Source: Eledone cirrhosa (Eukaryota). From it: a stretch of DNA of 64,000 bases. Of the stretch, positions 11,571 through 61,900 are shown one piece after another (position 1 is the stretch's first letter; the number at the start of each line of letters is the position of its first letter). Location: assembly GCA_964016885.1 (NCBI GenBank), contig OZ024747.1, forward strand, positions 52,824,001 to 52,888,000, in the 5' to 3' direction. Position numbers and translations under genes: made by a program. The notes beneath the pieces were generated by a model, which was not told the DNA's origin, ran no database searches, and saw only the letters and a program-made list of their open reading frames with translations.

Positions 11571-11740
11571 ACATACAAGTAGAACGGATATTTAATTTGT
11601 TGGAAATCCAACAAATATAAATGTTTATAACTGATTCAGAGCACTCGACAGATTTCTGGAGTAAGACTACCCAGGGAATATTCAACTGATAAGGTATGAT
11701 TTTCCTTGGCTATGTCAAAATTTATAAAGCACTCTTTGTA

Positions 11741-11798
11741 TTTATCTGATGAAAGCATACTAAAGTTTTTTTGGTACCCTTGAAATATATATAATAGA
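11741..11798 (+). ncRNA. Type I hammerhead motif in (TA)-embedded element 11575-11876
   Basis: TTTAT-CTGATGA-AAGCATAC..GTACCCTT-GAAA-TATATA-TA-ATAGA; stem II has 2 mismatches; tail motif AGCACTCGAC at 11640. Confidence 0.7.
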
Positions 11799-12859
11799 AT
11801 AAATAGGCTAAACAAATTCAGAAACAGAATAAATATGGTTTTATAAATATATTTTCCATTTATTTAATATCATTGTATATATATATATATATGATGATGA
11901 TGATGATGATTATATATATATATATATATATATAATGAAGTGGCCTACTGTAAGATTTCACTTGCTTTCCCCGTTCTTTAAACAAGTTCAATCTCTCTCT
12001 CTGGGTTTTCATTTTGTAAAGTGTGTCTTTCTAATGTGTCTGTGTGTTCGTACCACATGCTGACTGGCAGCTGGGTTCTCTCTCCCTTTCTCTCTCTCTC
12101 TCTGCACACACACACAACACACGCACAGTATATACACACACACACACACACGTGCATATTGCTGCTGTTCACTTTCATGAATGATTCCTTCACAATGATA
12201 TTGCTGCTGCTGCTGTTACTGGTTTGATAGTGGTGGTGGTGGTGGTGGTGGTGATATTGTGTTTGATGGTAGTGGTGATGATGGTTGTGGTAATGATAGT
12301 TGAGCTAGTGGTGGTGATGGTGGCAGTGATACTGAGTGTGGGTGATGGTGGTAGTGGTGATGGTGGTAGTGGTGATGGTTGTGGTAGTGGGTGGTGATGG
12401 TGGTAATAGTGATGGTGGCAGTGATATTGTGTGTGGTGATGGTGATGGTGGTGGTGGTGATGCTGATGGTTGTGGTAGTGGTAATGGTGATGGTGGTGGT
12501 GATGGGTGCACTGGTGTTGATGGAGTCCATGTTTACATTTGTTACGTCCCATAACTTAGCAGTTAGCCAAGAAACAGAGATGGTTAAGATTAAGTAACAG
12601 ACTGGAAAAGATAAGTCCTACTAGAATTGATATGATTGACTTTAAGATGGGACTTCAGTGTAGCCTCAGTCTAGCACTTCAGTAAGGTGGTGATGGTGGA
12701 GAGGGATGGTGGTGGTGATGGTGTTAGTTTTGGAAATATTGATGGTAGTGATGGTGGTGGTGGTGGTTGGAGGGCAGGTGGTGTTGGTGGTAGTGGGGAT
12801 GGCTATTGCGTAATAAATGATTTAGACAGGATCAGAGCTAGTTATAGTGAACCTGAGGA

Positions 12860-14860: not shown

Positions 14861-15712
14861 AGAGGCAGTAGCCATGTTGGAGGTGGTGCTTGTGGAGGCG
14901 GTGATGGCAGTAGAAGTAGTGGCTACAATAGCAACAACATATACAACATTACCTGAACATACATTTACCTATCCCCCCTCCCGCCCGCCCCCACCTATTG
15001 TTCACTTTATGGTGTTGCTGATGGAAGTGGTCTTCTTGGTAGAAAGGTGAGTTAGCTTTGTTCTTCAGACACAAACGCCATCACTACCACCACCACCACC
15101 ACCACAACACAGAGGCACACGTGTCTGTGGCTGTGTATGTATGTATAGATATATGTATGTGTGTGTGTGCACGCAGACATACGTGTGTCTGTGTGTGTAT
15201 ATATGTATATATATATATATATATATGTGTGTGTCTGGGTATATATATACATATATATACATATATATATGTGTGTGTCTGGGTATATATATATATTTAT
15301 TCATATATATATATGGGTGTCCATATATATGTATATTTATACACACACATGTTTATCATGCTCATTTTGCTGTAAAATTTTCCCATAAAAGTTTGTGGTA
15401 TATATATATATATATATATTTATGTATGTGTGTGTATGTGTATGTATGTGTGTGTGTGGGAGTTTGTACAGTGCAATTTTCTGTACTCATTGTCCTTGTG
15501 TCACAAAAAATGGTTTATAATGAAAATTACAAATAAAAACACACCCAGTCACTCAGTTAACAATAACAGACACATACATATGTTCATATATAGATATATA
15601 TACACCACTCACACACACACATACCCTCTCTTACTTAATCCAATAAAACTTTAAAGAGACAGCTGTGAATATTACATGATGAAATAAATAAAAAATTTGA
15701 ATTAAAATGTTG

Positions 15713-15749
<37 letters not shown>

Positions 15750-16234
15750 CATTATCGTCGTCGTCATTGAGGGGACAGTTGCACTGGTAGTCAAGGTGTC
15801 TGTGGCGTTTGTGGGCTTTCTCCACAAGTAACCCTTCGAAGCCCCCCCCCCCCCCCCCCCCCCTATTGGGGGAATATTCTTTTGTTTCTAATTATTTTTA
15901 ATTACATCCTTTGTTTTTATAGTCATTTTTTACCAGCAGAAACCCACATTGTACCGTCCTGTGCGGCCCTTAATGTATTTTTATGTAAACCCTTTGTGGT
16001 CAATAAAGAAAACCTTATTATTATTATTATTTCTGATAAAATTATTAAATGACTTGAAGTCTTTGCAACAGGTGGTGTTAAGTTGAACTTTACTAGTGCA
16101 ACTGGTTATGACTTTATTGAATATGATTTGCAGAATTTGTAAATTTATACACATAATGAGATACTCATACAAACAAAGAATATATCATCATCATCATCAT
16201 CATCACCGTTTTATATATATATATATATATATAT

Positions 16235-16597
16235 GTGTAGAATGTGAGTAATATTGTAGAACATTAAAACTATGCATATATCAGATAAGTAGCACTCAAC
16301 AGTTGGTAGAACTAGAGTATATATAAAGAAGAAATTAAAAGATGGTTAAAAAGAGTTCCATATATTTTATTATGCGCATTTCGAATACAAAAATTGTGTT
16401 CTCATCAGATAAAATAAGGTAACATGATATGTTGACTTAGTACTTTCCTGTAAACAAGTGCTATTATGCTTCATATCATGTTACCTTATTTTATCTGGTG
16501 AGAACACAATTTTTGTCCCAGGATGATTTTGTATTCGAAATGCGCATAACAAAATATATGAAACTCTTTTTAGCCACCTTTTAATTTCTTCTTTTTA
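16235..16597. mobile_element. (TA)n-embedded fold-back element (arms 16325-16431 and 16472-16594, 40-nt loop)
   Basis: Reverse-complementary arms, each carrying a hammerhead motif; AGCACTCAAC at 16291. Confidence 0.9.
16363..16416 (-). ncRNA. Type I hammerhead ribozyme, complete core
   Basis: Minus strand TATTTTAT-CTGATGA-GAACACAA(TTT)TTGTATTC-GAAA-TGCGCA-TA-ATAAAATA: 8-bp stem I, 7/8-bp stem II, palindromic ATGCGCAT stem III. Confidence 0.85.
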
Positions 16598-16911
16598 TAT
16601 ATATATATATATATATATATTATCATTATTATTATACTTAATTAAATTTGTCACGAATATACATAATATCTCAATAAAAGGAGATAGTTTAAAATATCTG
16701 ATTCAGAGAGGCTTTTACTGGGATCCACCCTTCAGTGATTTTGTATAAGTTACTCTCTTTCTCTCTCTCTCCTAAATGAGCGAGACATGGACACCTGACC
16801 CAACTTGTCTCTAAATGGGACAAACCGTCTAACCCATGCTAGTGTGGAAGATAGACGTTAATTGAAGATGATGATAATGATGATTATATATTTATATATA
16901 TATATATATAT

Positions 16912-17446
16912 TTGAAAAGAGAAGTAAGGTTCTATATAAAACAGTGGTTATAGAGAAAAGGTGAAATTGGAAATAGCACGAAAAATATATTTAAGGGCCT
17001 GTTTTTTTTTCTTTCCCTTTCTTTGATTTGTCAAAGTGACATTATTGAAAAGATGCGAGAGACAATTCTTCTAAAAAAGAATTTTAAAATGTATATAATA
17101 TAACTGATTTCGATGTATTAGTAAAATTCATCTTATCAAATGTTGAGTATAAGAATTAAAAACTTGCCTCAACACTTAATTTTAAATCTTTAATTTTTAG
17201 GTTTTAATTCTTATTAATTCTTTTTAATTGTAATACCCAACATTTGATAAGATGAATTTTATTACTAATACATCGAAACCGGTAATACTTTATATACATT
17301 ATATACATAATAAAACTCTTTTTTAAAAAAATTGTCACTCTCGTTTTATCAATAATGTCACTTTGGCGAATCAAAGAAAGGAGAAAAAAAAGAAAAACAG
17401 ACCTTTGATTATATTTTCTGTGCTATTTCCAGTTTCACCTTTTCTC
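16912..17446. mobile_element. Large diverged fold-back element (IR 16953-17446, about 200-bp arms) with degenerate hammerhead
   Basis: GAGAAAAGGTGAAA.TGGAAATAGCAC versus GTGCTATTTCCAGTTTCACCTTTTCTC; TTGATAA-GATG..CATC-GAAA-CCGG-TA at 17244-17284. Confidence 0.85.
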
Positions 17447-17570
17447 AAGCAGCGAAAAGGGGATGATGATATATAAGGAAAGTGAAGAAGAAAAAGTAAA
17501 CGCAAGAGAACAATACAATATAATAATTATATATTAATATAAAGATATAATGCTTGATAAAGTTGCCAAA

Positions 17571-17603
17571 TTAACATTTTGGATACCAGTCCTTCATTGA
17601 AAG
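17571..17603 (-). other. Decayed hammerhead copy of the 8318 family
   Basis: Minus CTTTCAATGAAGGACTGGTATCCAAAATGTTAA aligns to CTTCTGATGAAGGACTAGCGTCCGAAACGTTAA. Confidence 0.6.
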
Positions 17604-17812
17604 GAGAAAAGGGAAGAAAGATGTAAGTGAAAAATGAAAACCTCAAAATAGAAGACAGAATAAAGCACATCATGTTATTCAGACAACAAATGAAGTAAAC
17701 TGTCTTCATGAATGAGACAATATGTTGCCTGGTGCCTTCTGATTGTTAGTTGAATACTCAAACCAATGAGCCACATACTTTCACAAAAATGGATGTTAAA
17801 AAAAATGTTGAT

Positions 17813-17870
<58 letters not shown>

Positions 17871-18147
17871 GCTTATCAAAGTTATATCTTTATTCTCTTA
17901 ACGCTTTTGTCAACCTGAAGCTAGAGTACAACACACCTTTCCAAGATGTTGCATAGTGTGACTGATACCAGAGCCATGTGGTTATAAATTGAACTACTTA
18001 ACCACAAAGCCATGCCTGCACCTCCATATTGTGTGTATTTCTATATATGATGTGTGTGTGTATATATATATATATATGATGTGTGTATATATGTGATGTG
18101 TGTGTGTGTGTGTTCCTATATATCATACATTATATGAATTTTAGTTG

Positions 18148-58580: not shown

Positions 58581-58976
58581 ATATATATATATATACATAT
58601 ATATACGCACCCACATATGATATATACACAATGATATATACACATACACATATATACACAGATATTTATATATCTCTCTCTCTATACACATATATACCCA
58701 CACAATGATATATACACATACACATATATACACACACATACATATATACACACCCTCATATACATACACACAAATACTCATGCATATATACTCAATCACA
58801 TATACAAACATATACATACACTCTGAATCACATTCACATGCACATAATATAAGGTTGAGATTTAATCAAGAACTCTTTTAAAAAGCTTTTATCATAGAAA
58901 CAGGCAATGAATTAACAGAGTCATTAGAAGGTCAGATAGAATGTTTTGCAGTATTTGTTCTGCTGAGGTCAACTTT

Positions 58977-61900
58977 GTCGGGACTGTAGATGTCGGGACT
59001 GTAGATGTCGGGACTGTAGATGTCGGGACACTGTAGATGTCGGGACTGTAGATGTCGGGACACTGTAGATGTCGATGTCGGGACAGTAGATGTCGGGACA
59101 CTGTAGATGTCGGGACACTGTAGATGTCGGGACTGTAGATGTCGGGACTGTAGATGTCGGGACAGTAGATGTCGGGACTGTAGATGTCGGGACTGTAGAT
59201 GTCGGGACACTGTAGATGTAGGGACTTTAGATGTCGGGACTGTAGATGTCGGGACTGTAGATGTCGGGACAGTAGATGTCGGGACACTGTAGATGTCGGG
59301 ACACTGTAGATGTCGGGACTGTAGATGTCGGGACTGTAGATGTCGGGACAGTAGATGTCGGGACACTGTAGATGTCGGGACTTTAGATGTCGGGACTGTA
59401 GATGTCGGGACACTGTAGATGTCGGGACTGTAGATGTCGGGACTGTAGATGTCGGGACTGTAGATGTCGGGACAGTAGATGTCGGGACAGTAGATGTCGG
59501 GACTGTAGATGTCGGGACTGTAGATGTCGGGACTGTAGATGTCGGGACTGTAGATGTCGGGACTGTAGATGTAGGGACAGTAGATGTCGGGACTGTAGAT
59601 GTCGGGACTGTAGATGTCGGGACTGTAGATGTCGGGACAGTAGATGTCGGGACTGTAGATGTCGGGACTGTAGATGTCGGGACTGTAGATGTCGGGACTG
59701 TAGATGTAGGGACAGTAGATGTCGGGACACTGTAGATGTCGGGACTGTAGATGTCGGGACTGTAGATGTAGGGACTCTCTAGATGTAGGGACTGTAGATG
59801 TCGGGACACTGTAGATGTCGGGACTGTAGATGTCGGGACTGTAGATGTCGGGACTGTAGATGTCGGGACTGTAGATGTCGGGACTGTAGATGTCGGGACA
59901 CTGTAGATGTCGGGACTGTAGATGTCGGGACTGTAGATGTCGGGACTGTAGATGTCGGGACTGTAGATGTCGGGACAGTAGATGTCGGGACTGTAGATGT
60001 CGGGACTGTAGATGTCGGGACTGTAGATGTAGGGACAGTAGATGTCGGGACTGTAGATGTCGGGACAGTAGATGTCGGGACTGTAGATGGCAGGACTGTA
60101 GATGTCGGGACTCTAGATGTAGGGACTGTAGATGTTGGGGCACTGTAGATGTAGGGACAGTAGATGTCGGGACTGTAGATGTCGGGACTGTAGATGTCGG
60201 GACACTGTAGATGTAGGGACTGTAGATGTCGGGACTGTAGATGTCGGGACAGTAGATGTAGGGACTGTAGATGTCGGGGCACTGTAGATGTAGGGACAGT
60301 AGATGTCGGGACACTGTAGATGTCGAGACTGTAGATGTCGGGACACAATAGATGTAGGGACAGTAGATGTCGGGACAGTAGATGTCGGGACTGTAGATGT
60401 AGGGACTGTAGATGTCGGGACTGTAGATGTCGGGACAGTAGATGTCGGGACTGTAGATGTCGAGACTGTAGATGTCGGGGCACTGTAGATGTAGGGACAG
60501 TAGATGTCGGGACACTGTAGATGTCGGGACTGTAGATGTCGGGACACTGTAGATGTAGGGACAGTAGATGTCGGGACAGTAGATGTCGGGACTGTAGATG
60601 TAGGGACTGTAGATGTCGGGACTGTAGATGTCGGGACAGTAGATGTCGGGACTGTAGATGTCGAGACTGTAGATGTCGGGACTGTAGATGTCGGGACAGT
60701 AGATGTAGGGACAGTAGATGTCGGGACAGTAGATGTCGGCAGAGTAGATGTCGAGACTGTAGATGTCGGGACTGTAGATGTCGGGACAGTAGATGTAAGG
60801 ACAGTAGATGTCGGGACAGTAGATGTCGGCAGAGTAGATGTCGGGACTGTAGATGTCGGGACAGTAGATGTAGGGACTGTAGATGTCAGGACTGTAGATG
60901 TAGGGACTGTAGATGTCGGGACTGTAGATGTCGGGACAGTAGATGTAGGGACAGTAGATGTCGGGACAGTAGATGTCGGCAGAGTAGATGTCGAGACTGT
61001 AGATGTCGGGACTGTAGATGTCGGGACAGTAGATGTAGGGACTGTAGATGTCGGGACTGTAGATGTAGGGACTGTAGATGTCGGGACTGTAGATGTCGGG
61101 ACTGTAGATGTCGGGACTCTCTAGATGTAGGGACTGTAGATGTCGGGACACCGTAGATGTCGGGACTGTAGATGTCGGGACTCTAGATGTAGGGACAGTA
61201 GATGTCGGGACACTGTAGATGTCGGGACTGTAGATGTCGGGACAGTAGATGTCGGGACAGTAGATGTCGGGACTGTAGATGTCGGGACAGTAGATGTCGG
61301 GACTGTAGATGTCGGGACAGTAGATGTCGGGACTGTAGATGTCGGGACTGTAGATGTCGGGACTCTAGATGTCGGGACTGTAGATGTCGGGACAGTAGAT
61401 GTCGGGACTGTAGATGTCGGGACAGTAGATGTCGGGACTGTAGATGTCGGGACAGTAGATGTCGGGACTGTAGATGTCGGGACAGTAGATGTCGGGACTG
61501 TAGATGGCAGGACTGTAGATGTCGGGACACTGTAGATGTCGGGACTGTAGATGTCGGGACTGTAGATGTCGGGACTGTAGATGTCGGGACTGTAGATGTC
61601 GGGACTGTAAATGTCGGGACTGTAGATGTCGGGACTGTAGATGTCGGGTCTCTCTAGATGTAGGGACTGTAGATGTAGGGACTGGAGATGTCGGGACTGT
61701 AGATGTCGGGACTGTAGATGTCGGGACTGTAAATGTCGGGACTGTAGATGTCGGGACTGTAGATGTCGGGACACTGTAGATGTCGGGACTGTAGATGTCG
61801 GGACTGTAGATGTCGGGACTGTAAATGTCGGGACTGTAGATGTCGGGACTGTAGATGTAGGGACTGTAGATGTCGGGACTGTAGATGTCGGGACTCTCTA

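What the first reader, a model, noticed from the sequence alone, without database searches (positions are those of the whole stretch)
16363..16556. Best hammerhead candidate, mirrored on both strands of one palindrome
Seen: the minus-strand copy (16416-16363) has a complete core, 8-bp stem I and 7/8-bp stem II, with predicted cleavage after AUA between 16371 and 16370. The plus-strand mirror (16487-16556) has CTGGTGA and a 16-nt insertion in loop II. Inference: any read-through transcript contains both a ribozyme and its antisense, so cleavage would compete with fold-back pairing and act as a built-in switch.
Basis: partly seen in the sequence, partly recalled or inferred. Interest (0 to 1): 0.75.

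Follow-up and report, generated by a model that had tools for sequence, protein, structure and literature searches.

The report
Hammerhead ribozyme relic of a Penelope-like retrotransposon
The mirrored hammerhead motif is real, but it belongs to one decayed, head-to-head insertion of a very abundant Penelope-like retrotransposon that carries a dimer-type hammerhead near its 3' end, so it is an ordinary member of a known kind and likely not a special switch.

Summary
Minus 16416-16363 has a complete hammerhead (HHR) core, an 8-bp helix I, a 7/8-bp helix II, and H17 = A at 16371. Plus 16487-16556 is its mirror, with CUGGUGA.

It is not a lone locus. Window 16236-16595 is one copy of a dispersed repeat, with at least 2,000 first-look candidates in the 3.0-Gb genome. 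The copy sits in (TA)n. A sister family with the same arm and "tail" runs upstream, with variable 5' truncation, into an ORF. That ORF carries the motif set published for "Hydra"-clade Penelope-like elements (PLEs): RWK, DKT, YRDD, CxCX5C, CxxC/CxH.

Published PLE insertions target (TA)n, carry an HHR, have an optional tail, and often have an adjacent inverted 5'-truncated copy. That last feature explains the palindrome.

Across 99 distinct related arms, the HHR helices covary: 91% of cells pair, against 32-61% in slid controls. Helix III is an 8-nt palindrome, as in dimer-type metazoan HHRs.

The window copy is degenerate. Its "16-nt insertion" is really a copy-specific deletion in the minus arm. 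The plus arm has A6G and a helix I mismatch.

The "built-in switch" idea is unsupported: the fold-back is about -155 kcal/mol, the monomer HHR fold +1.0. No Rfam hit and no RNA data.

The parts
16212..16234 (.). (TA)n microsatellite flanking the element (target sequence)
   Evidence: Other copies also begin right after (TA)n or (TG)n.
16236..16317 (-). Optional 3' 'tail' of the main (minus-sense) copy, present on one side only
   Evidence: Conserved on one flank only in 25 aligned copies. Absent from 19 of 20 inverted partner arms. The same segment lies inverted at the 5' end of the long copy L060. This matches the published PLE 'tail'.
16318..16325 (.). Internal TATATATA between body and tail; this is where tail-less copies end
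   Evidence: Inverted arms stop at query position 128 (family B) or at most 132 (family A), which is this point.
16326..16431 (-). Main copy: 5'-truncated 3' region of the retroelement, sense on the minus strand
   Evidence: Full-length matches at 80-89% identity to dispersed copies. 74-79% identity to family B arms, which continue upstream into an RT/endonuclease ORF.
16363..16416 (-). Hammerhead motif, type I, core intact, with a copy-specific deletion in distal helix II/loop II. Core C3-A9 = 16408-16402; H17 = 16371.
16432..16471 (.). 40-nt junction between the two head-to-head copies
   Evidence: Junction length varies among copies.
16472..16595 (+). Inverted 5'-truncated partner copy, sense on the plus strand, without tail
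16487..16556 (+). Hammerhead motif of the partner copy, with CUGGUGA (A6G) at 16495-16501 and an A.C mismatch in helix I. Likely inactive.
16596..16620 (.). (TA)n microsatellite on the other flank
   Evidence: the same in other copies.

Best explanation
Window 16236-16595 is one decayed insertion, into a (TA)n microsatellite, of a short 5'-truncated copy of a very abundant retroelement that is likely a 'Hydra'-clade Penelope-like element, laid down together with an inverted 5'-truncated partner copy; each arm carries the element's 3'-region type-I hammerhead motif.

Shown directly:
- The motif and the palindrome are in the sequence.
- The locus belongs to a dispersed family.
- The tail sits on one side only.
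- Junctions vary between copies.
- The sister family continues into an ORF with RT and GIY-YIG-like motifs.
- The three helices covary across families.

Inferred:
- The hammerhead would act in element transcripts as a double hammerhead. Two sense copies would pair their AUGCGCAU segments into an 8-bp helix III and cut after A17.
- At this locus the minus-sense copy might still be able to do so in trans.
- The plus-sense copy is likely dead (A6G).
- A transcript spanning both arms would fold back and mask the ribozyme.

What the cut does for the element is not known. The published suggestion is processing of multimeric or read-through element RNA.
For: (1) Dispersed family. A 284-bp query gave 2,153 first-look candidates. 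All 40 scored were near full length (37 of them spanning query 1-283/284), at 80-89% identity on the better strand. An arm-plus-tail query gave 2,015 candidates at 95-97% identity.

(2) Retroelement behaviour. The sister family B has the same arm and tail and gave 1,400 candidates. It shows variable 5' truncation. An inverted partner lies at variable distance or is absent.

(3) Coding part.
- L060 carries a 533-aa ORF with YRDD, CNCx5C and CxxC..E..N..CxH.
- The homologue P0002 matched the own genome over its full length in 63 of 63 scored places. Many ORFs of 708-760 aa are intact, and there were 93,334 first-look candidates.
- The L143 ORF (710 aa) has RWK, DKT, FDxxxFYPSI, YRDDG, CSCx5C, CSLC and CPH.
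- These are the features listed for the Hydra clade, which also include length under 3 kb, insertion in (TA)n and presence of HHRs (PMC8557442, section 11 read in full).
- Atlas neighbours carry HTH_animal, RVT_1 and GIY-YIG. One relative has a precomputed GIY-YIG hit.

(4) Hammerhead shape is conserved (on 99 distinct arms of about seven sequence types).
- 91.1% of cells pair, against 32-61% when partners are slid.
- 8 of 10 helix II pairs change on both sides. For example, 21-54 is CG 76/UA 18, 23-52 is AU 72/CG 18, and 16-59 is GC 43/GU 35/AU 14.
- The helix III palindrome switches from GC/CG to AU/UA (73/21 and 65/14).

(5) The predicted lowest-energy dimer of two 91-nt copies is a double hammerhead. 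It scores -25.3 kcal/mol, against 2 x -7.3 for monomers.

(6) The anatomy matches published metazoan type-I and PLE HHRs: helix III of 1-2 bp with a 2-4 nt palindromic loop, working as dimers (PMC4209133, passages).

(7) Another family in this genome has canonical HHRs above the Rfam cut-off. It also ends in (TA)n, and some copies are head-to-head.
Against: - No Rfam hammerhead model matches. This held at gathering scores over the whole window, at E up to 10 on 16200-16700, and on a family B copy.
- The monomer HHR fold is unstable: +1.0 kcal/mol, MFE -3.1, z = +0.82.
- Pfam and PDB sequence searches find no RT or GIY-YIG domain in the ORFs. The PLE assignment therefore rests on short motifs read against a paper's description and on language-model neighbours. 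It does not rest on a phylogeny.
- The window copy has no ORF. Its link to the coding element is 74-79% identity of the arm plus the shared tail.
- The covariation comes from few independent lineages. The rows were harvested with a pattern that fixed the core, helix I and part of helix III, so only helix II is an unbiased test.
- Core positions in old copies are only slightly better kept than the rest (0.983 against 0.955).
- No RNA evidence was obtained.
- Published PLE HHRs cleave poorly in vitro and were dispensable for in vitro insertion.
Confidence: 0.82

Rival explanations
1. The hammerhead shape is a conserved RNA or DNA structure of the element's 3' region that no longer cleaves, or never did. 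It would serve, for example, as a recognition structure for the element's RT or endonuclease. The hammerhead-like core would then be kept for binding, not catalysis.
For: No Rfam HHR match. Helix II is unusually long, with a conserved unpaired C at its fourth pair in 96 of 99 rows. PLE HHRs have low in vitro activity. The HHR was dispensable for in vitro insertion, and no reads ended at the cut site in another PLE.
Against: All invariant core positions are kept, along with the A15.1-U16.1 pair, H17 not G, and a self-complementary helix III. These hold across families whose helix II sequences differ completely. A mere hairpin signal would not need them.
Confidence: 0.2
2. One reading: the sense/antisense pair in one palindrome is a built-in switch, in which cleavage competes with fold-back pairing.
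For: Both arms do carry the motif, and a read-through RNA would contain the ribozyme and its antisense.
Against: The fold-back is about -155 kcal/mol, the monomer HHR +1.0. The antisense arm is always transcribed first. Junction distance varies from 15 to 168 nt, and 9 of 29 family members have no partner at all. The arrangement is a known integration by-product. The plus copy has A6G.
Confidence: 0.04
3. The locus works mainly as a long hairpin RNA source (endo-siRNA or miRNA-like), and the hammerhead is irrelevant.
For: A near-perfect hairpin of about 115 bp per arm, at -155 kcal/mol. Weak matches to miRNA hairpin models, for example mir-1263 at 36.3 bits, E = 2.9e-5.
Against: Those matches lie far below the gathering scores (95 and 69 bits), occur on both strands, and reflect any long AU-rich hairpin. 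No small-RNA or other RNA data were available. This reading does not explain the covarying three-way junction inside each arm.
Confidence: 0.1
4. A miniature inverted-repeat DNA transposon (TA target) or fold-back element that contains a hammerhead look-alike by chance.
For: The palindromic form, the flanking TA repeats and the high copy number.
Against: - The element is asymmetric, with the tail on one side only.
- Junctions and 5' truncation points vary.
- It continues into an RT/EN ORF.
- Motif hits are rare in shuffles.
- The helices covary.
Confidence: 0.03

Closest known systems
Hammerhead ribozymes of Penelope-like elements and other metazoan type-I HHRs (Cervera & de la Pena 2014, PMC4209133; passages read)
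   Same: Type-I topology. Conserved core with G10.1-C11.1 in family A. Helix III of 2 bp capped by a 4-nt palindromic loop, so that two copies can form an extended helix III. Located in a PLE, with many copies per genome and much sequence variation carrying compensatory changes.
   Different: Helix I is 8 bp and uninterrupted, and helix II is long (8-16 pairs) with a conserved unpaired C at its fourth pair. The published canonical form has about 6-bp and 4-bp helices with loop-loop contacts. No Rfam hammerhead model scores this motif.
'Hydra' clade of C-terminal-endonuclease PLEs (Craig et al. 2021, PMC8557442; section 11 read in full, other passages)
   Same: Short single-ORF element. Has the RWK, DKT and CxCX5C linker motifs and the CxxC/CxH motifs around E and N. 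Inserts into (TA)n, carries an HHR, has an inverted 5'-truncated copy at the 5' end, and has a tail on one end only.
   Different: The tail here is about 82-125 nt, against the published 30-40 bp. Membership was judged by motifs only; no tree was built against the reference families. The paper's supplementary HHR file was not seen. The host of this genome is not known to me.
Double hammerheads of newt satellite 2 and viroid-like RNAs (Forster et al. 1988, seen only as a citation)
   Same: Weak helix III as a monomer, and an active fold predicted only when two copies pair.
   Different: Those RNAs come from tandem repeats, so two sense copies lie on one transcript. Here the two copies are inverted, so the dimer would need two transcripts or neighbouring insertions.
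Metazoan non-LTR retrozymes (Cervera & de la Pena 2020, PMC7229834, passages; Li et al. 2026 preprint 10.64898/2026.07.22.740005, abstract only)
   Same: Short non-coding AT-rich repeats with a type-I HHR, thought to be non-autonomous derivatives of PLEs.
   Different: Retrozymes are head-to-tail tandem arrays that give circular RNAs. This locus is a single head-to-head pair, with no tandem copy in the window.

Membership tests
Hammerhead ribozyme (type I) | Core C3-U4-G5-A6-N7-G8-A9 and G12-A13-A14 | tested here: met
   The minus copy has CUGAUGA and GAA. The plus copy fails, with CUGGUGA. In the families, CTGATGA is intact in 42 of 46 A arms and 71 of 75 B arms.
Hammerhead ribozyme (type I) | A15.1-U16.1 pair and H17 not G at the cleavage site | tested here: met
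   The sequence reads GAA-A-UGCGCA-U-A, with H17 = A at 16371. Column pair 63-70 is A-U in 97 of 99 rows.
Hammerhead ribozyme (type I) | Three helices around the core, supported by compensatory changes | tested here: met
   91.1% of cells pair, against 32-61% in slid controls. Helix II has 8 of 10 pairs with changes on both sides. The two inner helix III pairs (the self-complementary loop) both covary; the outer two pairs vary on one side only. Helix I hardly varies, and the harvest pattern fixed it.
Hammerhead ribozyme (type I) | Match to a curated covariance model (Rfam RF00163 and other hammerhead families) | tested here: not met
   No hammerhead hit at gathering score or at E up to 10. RF00163 does find another repeat family in the same genome.
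Hammerhead ribozyme (type I) | Tertiary contacts between helix I and loop II | not testable with these tools
   Helix I is a continuous 8-bp stem, followed by a possible internal loop. No contact could be assigned.
Hammerhead ribozyme (type I) | Site-specific self-cleavage | not testable with these tools
   Needs transcription and cleavage assays or RNA end mapping. No RNA run was listed.
Penelope-like elements, Hydra clade | Single ORF with RT followed by a C-terminal GIY-YIG endonuclease, element under 3 kb | tested here: inconclusive
   Motifs FDxxxFYPSI, YRDDG, VVYEAKI, RYVGMT..R..H are present in the L143 ORF and in P0001. The common 5' end gives an element of about 2.8 kb. Pfam and PDB searches find no domain. 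Atlas neighbours carry RVT_1, HTH_animal and GIY-YIG. The structure prediction could not be started.
Penelope-like elements, Hydra clade | RWK motif, DKT instead of DKG, CxCX5C linker, CxxC and CxH around E and N (PMC8557442, section 11) | tested here: met
   The L143 ORF has RMRWKA, SDKTKN, CSCRKPDEC, CSLCITEK...N...CCPH. P0001 has CNCPVRTKC and CNLC...CLH. Absence of the internal CCHH motif was not checked rigorously.
Penelope-like elements, Hydra clade | Insertion into (TA)n | tested here: met
   The window copy is flanked by (TA)n on both sides. The same holds for most of 25 aligned copies, some of which have (TG)n instead.
Penelope-like elements, Hydra clade | Variable 5' truncation, adjacent inverted 5'-truncated copy, tail at one end only | tested here: met
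   20 of 29 copies have an inverted partner, and 19 of those 20 partners lack the tail.
Penelope-like elements, Hydra clade | Placement inside the clade in an RT phylogeny | not tested
Non-LTR retrozyme | Head-to-tail tandem repeats of the HHR-bearing unit | tested here: not met
   Only one direct and one inverted match of the unit exist in the window. There is no direct-repeat family of the unit in 15000-18000.
MITE / fold-back DNA transposon | Symmetric terminal inverted repeats with fixed ends and target-site duplication | tested here: not met
   The tail makes the element asymmetric, junctions vary, and the arm continues into an RT/EN ORF.
miRNA precursor families (mir-1263, mir-5918) | Score at or above the Rfam gathering threshold | tested here: not met
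   36.3 bits against 95, and 33.5 bits against 69, on both strands.

The most novel reading that the evidence does not exclude
Thousands of head-to-head PLE insertions in this genome make perfect hairpin RNAs in which the element's own hammerhead is masked by its antisense. Only transcripts that start between the arms would free the ribozyme. The inverted pairs would act as a self-made silencing source (double-stranded RNA) against the active elements, with ribozyme cleavage and fold-back as alternative fates of element RNA.
Probability: 0.08. Interest if true: 0.55.

Novelty: new member of a known kind. Interest (0 to 1): 0.25.

Why it matters
The finding turns an apparently special locus into a recognisable class. 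It is a fossil insertion of a Penelope-like element whose hammerhead, (TA)n targeting, tail and inverted partner copy are all published features.

Three things are modestly useful:
- This genome holds very large, partly intact families of the little-studied Hydra clade.
- Their hammerheads have a long helix II that the Rfam models miss, yet they show clear compensatory changes and a self-complementary helix III.
- Both alternative 3' ends of the element abut TA repeats. This may bear on how these elements prime reverse transcription at (TA)n.

None of this changes current views of ribozymes.

Tried and rejected
- **Rfam.** No hammerhead match at gathering scores or at lax E-values. Only sub-threshold miRNA-like hairpin hits appeared, and I reject these as generic hairpin matches.
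- **First motif descriptor.** Requiring 4 contiguous helix II pairs found nothing, because of the internal mismatch. I relaxed it.
- **Core against non-core conservation within copies**. The difference is small (0.983 against 0.955) and not decisive. Copies decay neutrally, and the sample was the best-scoring hits.
- **RNA evidence.** No RNA holder was listed. The three listed runs are of unknown kind and kept as contigs, which cannot show RNA ends, so I did not lay them.
- **Earlier findings of this scan.** None by place or by sequence.
- **Domain searches on the ORFs.** Pfam on P0001, P0002, P0003, P0005, P0008, P0018 and the L143 ORF found no RT or GIY-YIG. The PDB search by sequence and by profile found nothing. 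Cluster look-up gave no useful names.
- **ORFs near the long copy L057** (449-2906). No Pfam family, and they lie outside the element.
- **An idea I rejected.** I first thought family A spreads as a fixed palindromic unit. That impression came from a sample chosen by similarity to the whole palindrome. A sample chosen by arm plus tail shows variable junctions.
- **Long ORFs elsewhere in the window.** They are low-complexity repeats and say nothing about the host.

Full report
**1. The observation**

- Minus strand 16416-16363 reads UAUUUUAU CUGAUGA GAACACAAUUUUUGUAUUC GAAA UGCGCAU A AUAAAAUA.
- Helix I is 8/8 bp. Helix II is 7/8 bp, with a C.A mismatch at the fourth pair. Helix III is only two pairs around GCGC.
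- H17 is the A at 16371, so the predicted cut lies between 16371 and 16370.
- Plus strand 16487-16556 is the mirror copy. It has CUGGUGA, 16 more nt in loop II, and an A.C mismatch in helix I.
- The palindrome is real. Its arms are 93% and 98% complementary, and 40 nt lie between the inner arms.

Chance level:
- A simple descriptor finds two sites in the 64-kb window: this one, and one with C3 at 11746 on the plus strand. 300 dinucleotide shuffles gave a mean of 0.08, with 23 of 300 having any hit.
- With helix I of at least 8 bp, 4 of 300 shuffles have a hit.

Points against a working ribozyme here:
- The isolated 54-mer is not a stable fold (MFE -3.1 kcal/mol, z = +0.82). The HHR-shaped structure scores +1.0 kcal/mol.
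- No Rfam hammerhead model matches, either at gathering scores on the whole window or at E up to 10 on 16200-16700.

**2. It is a copy of a dispersed repeat**

- The 284-bp palindrome gave 2,153 first-look candidates in the 3.0-Gb genome. All 40 scored were near full length (37 of them spanning query 1-283/284), at 80-89% identity on the better strand. Only one copy lies in the window.
- In an alignment of 25 copies with flanks, homology extends about 82 nt further on one side only (window 16236-17). A short TATATATA separates this extension from the palindrome. Both outer ends abut (TA)n, sometimes (TG)n.
- The comparison reverses one detail of the finding. Every other A-type arm in the 99-row alignment (one search counted 46 A-type arms) carries the longer loop II. 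So the window's minus copy has a private deletion.
- The window's CTGGTGA is the only one among 46 arms.

**3. The repeat is the 3' end of a retroelement**

- A sister family B has the same arm and the same one-sided extension. It gave 1,400 candidates at 94-96% identity, and its arm is 74-79% identical to the window's family A.
- In family B, the inverted arm lies at variable distance or is absent. Homology continues upstream with many different 5' end points. About ten copies share a common 5' end, which gives an element of about 2.8 kb.
- One such copy, L060, has an uninterrupted 533-codon frame. It contains YRDD and a C-terminal part with CNCPVRTKC, a GIY-YIG-like VYEC...YFGST...R..H, and CNLC...E...N...CLH.
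- Its database relatives are proteins of about 700-770 aa.
- One relative, P0002, matches the own genome over its whole length in 63 of 63 scored places. Many ORFs of 708-760 aa have no stop, and there were 93,334 first-look candidates.
- The 710-aa ORF of L143 shows RMRWKA, SDKTKN, FDIVDFYPSI, GLYRDDG, CSCRKPDEC, CSLCITEK and CCPH.

**4. Comparison with the literature**

Craig et al. 2021 (PMC8557442; section 11 read in full, other passages) define the 'Hydra' clade of Penelope-like elements. Its features are:
- an RWK motif, and DKT in place of DKG;
- a CxCX5C linker, and CxxC and CxH around the conserved E and N;
- insertion into (TA)n in almost all families;
- readily detected hammerheads.

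The same paper says that PLE insertions are often 5'-truncated. They often have an inverted 5'-truncated copy directly at the 5' end, and they carry a 'tail' extension at one end only.

Frangieh et al. 2024 (PMC11167929, passages) explain the tail. Reverse transcription starts at two sites, and the endonuclease cuts and extends both DNA strands.

All of these features are seen here:
- In a sample of family A chosen by arm plus tail only, 20 of 29 copies have an inverted partner 15-168 nt upstream. Of those 20 partners, 19 lack the tail.
- The tail segment also lies inverted at the 5' end of L060, whose own 3' end lacks it.
- Family A's tail is about 82-125 nt, longer than the published 30-40 bp.

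Limits of the assignment:
- Pfam and PDB sequence searches do not recognise RT or GIY-YIG in these proteins.
- Support beyond the motifs is thin. Language-model neighbours carry HTH_animal, RVT_1 and GIY-YIG. One relative has a precomputed GIY-YIG hit.
- I could not start a structure prediction, and I made no tree.
- I did not see the paper's supplementary files with the Hydra HHRs.

**5. Is the hammerhead real at the family level?**

- The loci fetched for other reasons contain 99 distinct sequences that fit a loose pattern: helix I plus core, any 18-45 nt, then GAAA plus helix III region plus helix I.
- They fall into about seven sequence types with quite different helix II sequences.

Pair counts on that alignment:
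- 91.1% of cells form standard pairs. The figure is 32-61% when the 3' partners are slid by 1-3 columns.
- Helix II has 8 of 10 pairs with changes on both sides:

| Column pair | Pair types (rows) |
|---|---|
| 16-59 | GC 43, GU 35, AU 14 |
| 18-57 | AU 82, GC 16 |
| 21-54 | CG 76, UA 18 |
| 23-52 | AU 72, CG 18 |

- The fourth pair of helix II is unpaired in 96 of 99 rows.
- The helix III segment stays self-complementary while changing from AUGCGCAU to AUAUAUAU or AUAUGUAU (65-68: GC 73, AU 21; 66-67: CG 65, UA 14, UG 11).

Caveats on these counts:
- The harvest pattern fixed the core, helix I and part of helix III, so only helix II is an unbiased test.
- The changes come from few lineages.

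Further support:
- The anatomy fits what Cervera and de la Pena 2014 describe for metazoan type-I and PLE hammerheads (PMC4209133, passages). They report a helix III of 1-2 bp with a small palindromic loop, action as dimers, and low activity in vitro.
- The predicted lowest-energy dimer of two 91-nt copies of the window's minus arm is a double hammerhead. It has an 8-bp intermolecular helix III and swapped helix I strands, at -25.3 kcal/mol against 2 x -7.3 for monomers.
- A different repeat family in this genome has canonical 45-nt hammerheads above the Rfam cut-off (18 of 74 scored candidates). It also ends in (TA)n, and in L089 and L095 the copies are head-to-head.
- The window's second descriptor hit, at 11746, belongs to yet another family with 2,445 candidates. 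The motif is kept in 7 of 7 relatives.

**6. What happens at this locus**

- The main copy is minus-sense. In order it runs: junction, sense hammerhead (16416-16363), about 37 nt, TATATATA, tail, (TA)n.
- The partner copy is plus-sense and has no tail.
- Both arms read outward, so any RNA that crosses the palindrome makes the antisense arm first.
- The fold-back of such RNAs is -155 to -156 kcal/mol. The hammerhead would therefore be masked, not balanced against the fold-back.
- The plus copy has A6G, an inactivating core change by established hammerhead biochemistry (recalled, from no call), plus a helix I mismatch.
- The minus copy keeps every core position, the proximal helix II and the palindromic helix III. 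It has lost the distal helix II and loop. Whether it can still cleave with a second copy is untested.
- I found no RNA data.

**7. Verdict**

The interpretation as a switch is not supported. The feature is a decayed head-to-head insertion of a likely Hydra-clade Penelope-like element, carrying that element's dimer-type hammerhead. It is a new member of a known kind and of low to moderate interest.

Noticed in passing
window 11738-11801 (+): A second hammerhead-like motif (UAUUUAU-CUGAUGA-long helix II-GAAA-UAUAUAU-A...). It belongs to another dispersed family with 2,445 first-look candidates, some in head-to-head pairs. The motif is kept in 7 of 7 relatives. The window copy has lost one T in helix I and has an extra stretch of about 29 nt after the motif.
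   Followed up: partly
window 16953-17446: A second palindromic high-copy repeat 350 nt downstream of the finding, with 3,119 first-look candidates. Many copies consist of one arm (query 206-494) with an inverted 1-210 partner. There is no CTGATGA core in it. It may be another truncated retroelement pair.
   Followed up: partly
L089-L098 (G000, e.g. C3:10277077-10277121): A repeat family with a canonical 45-nt type-I hammerhead above the Rfam RF00163 cut-off (18 of 74 scored candidates). It ends in (TA)n with two alternative 3' ends about 110 nt apart. The copies are head-to-head inverted in L089 and L095.
   Followed up: partly
L141-L146 and 57 further places: Very many full-length ORFs of 708-760 aa of the Hydra-type family, mostly intact (63 of 63 scored places full length; 93,334 first-look candidates). 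This suggests recent or current activity. L143 has a repeat on both sides of the ORF that contains a CUGAGGA...GAAAC hammerhead-like motif, like a pseudo-LTR.
   Followed up: partly
window 16318-16325 and 16212-16234; same points in families A and B: Both alternative 3' ends of the element (with and without tail) abut TA repeats. The tail-less end is an internal TATATATA. This would fit priming of reverse transcription by annealing of cut (TA)n target DNA to UA repeats in the RNA. That differs from the non-homologous internal initiation reported for a Poseidon element.
   Followed up: no
alignment A1, columns 19 and 56: The fourth pair of helix II is unpaired in 96 of 99 rows (C opposite A, U or C), across families whose neighbouring pairs covary. 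It is a conserved mismatch or bulge of unknown role.
   Followed up: no
window 58932-61364 (-): An 810-codon open frame with an Extensin-like Pfam match (E = 1e-42). Several overlapping frames are open in the same region, so it looks like a proline-rich or low-complexity tandem repeat, not necessarily a gene.
   Followed up: no
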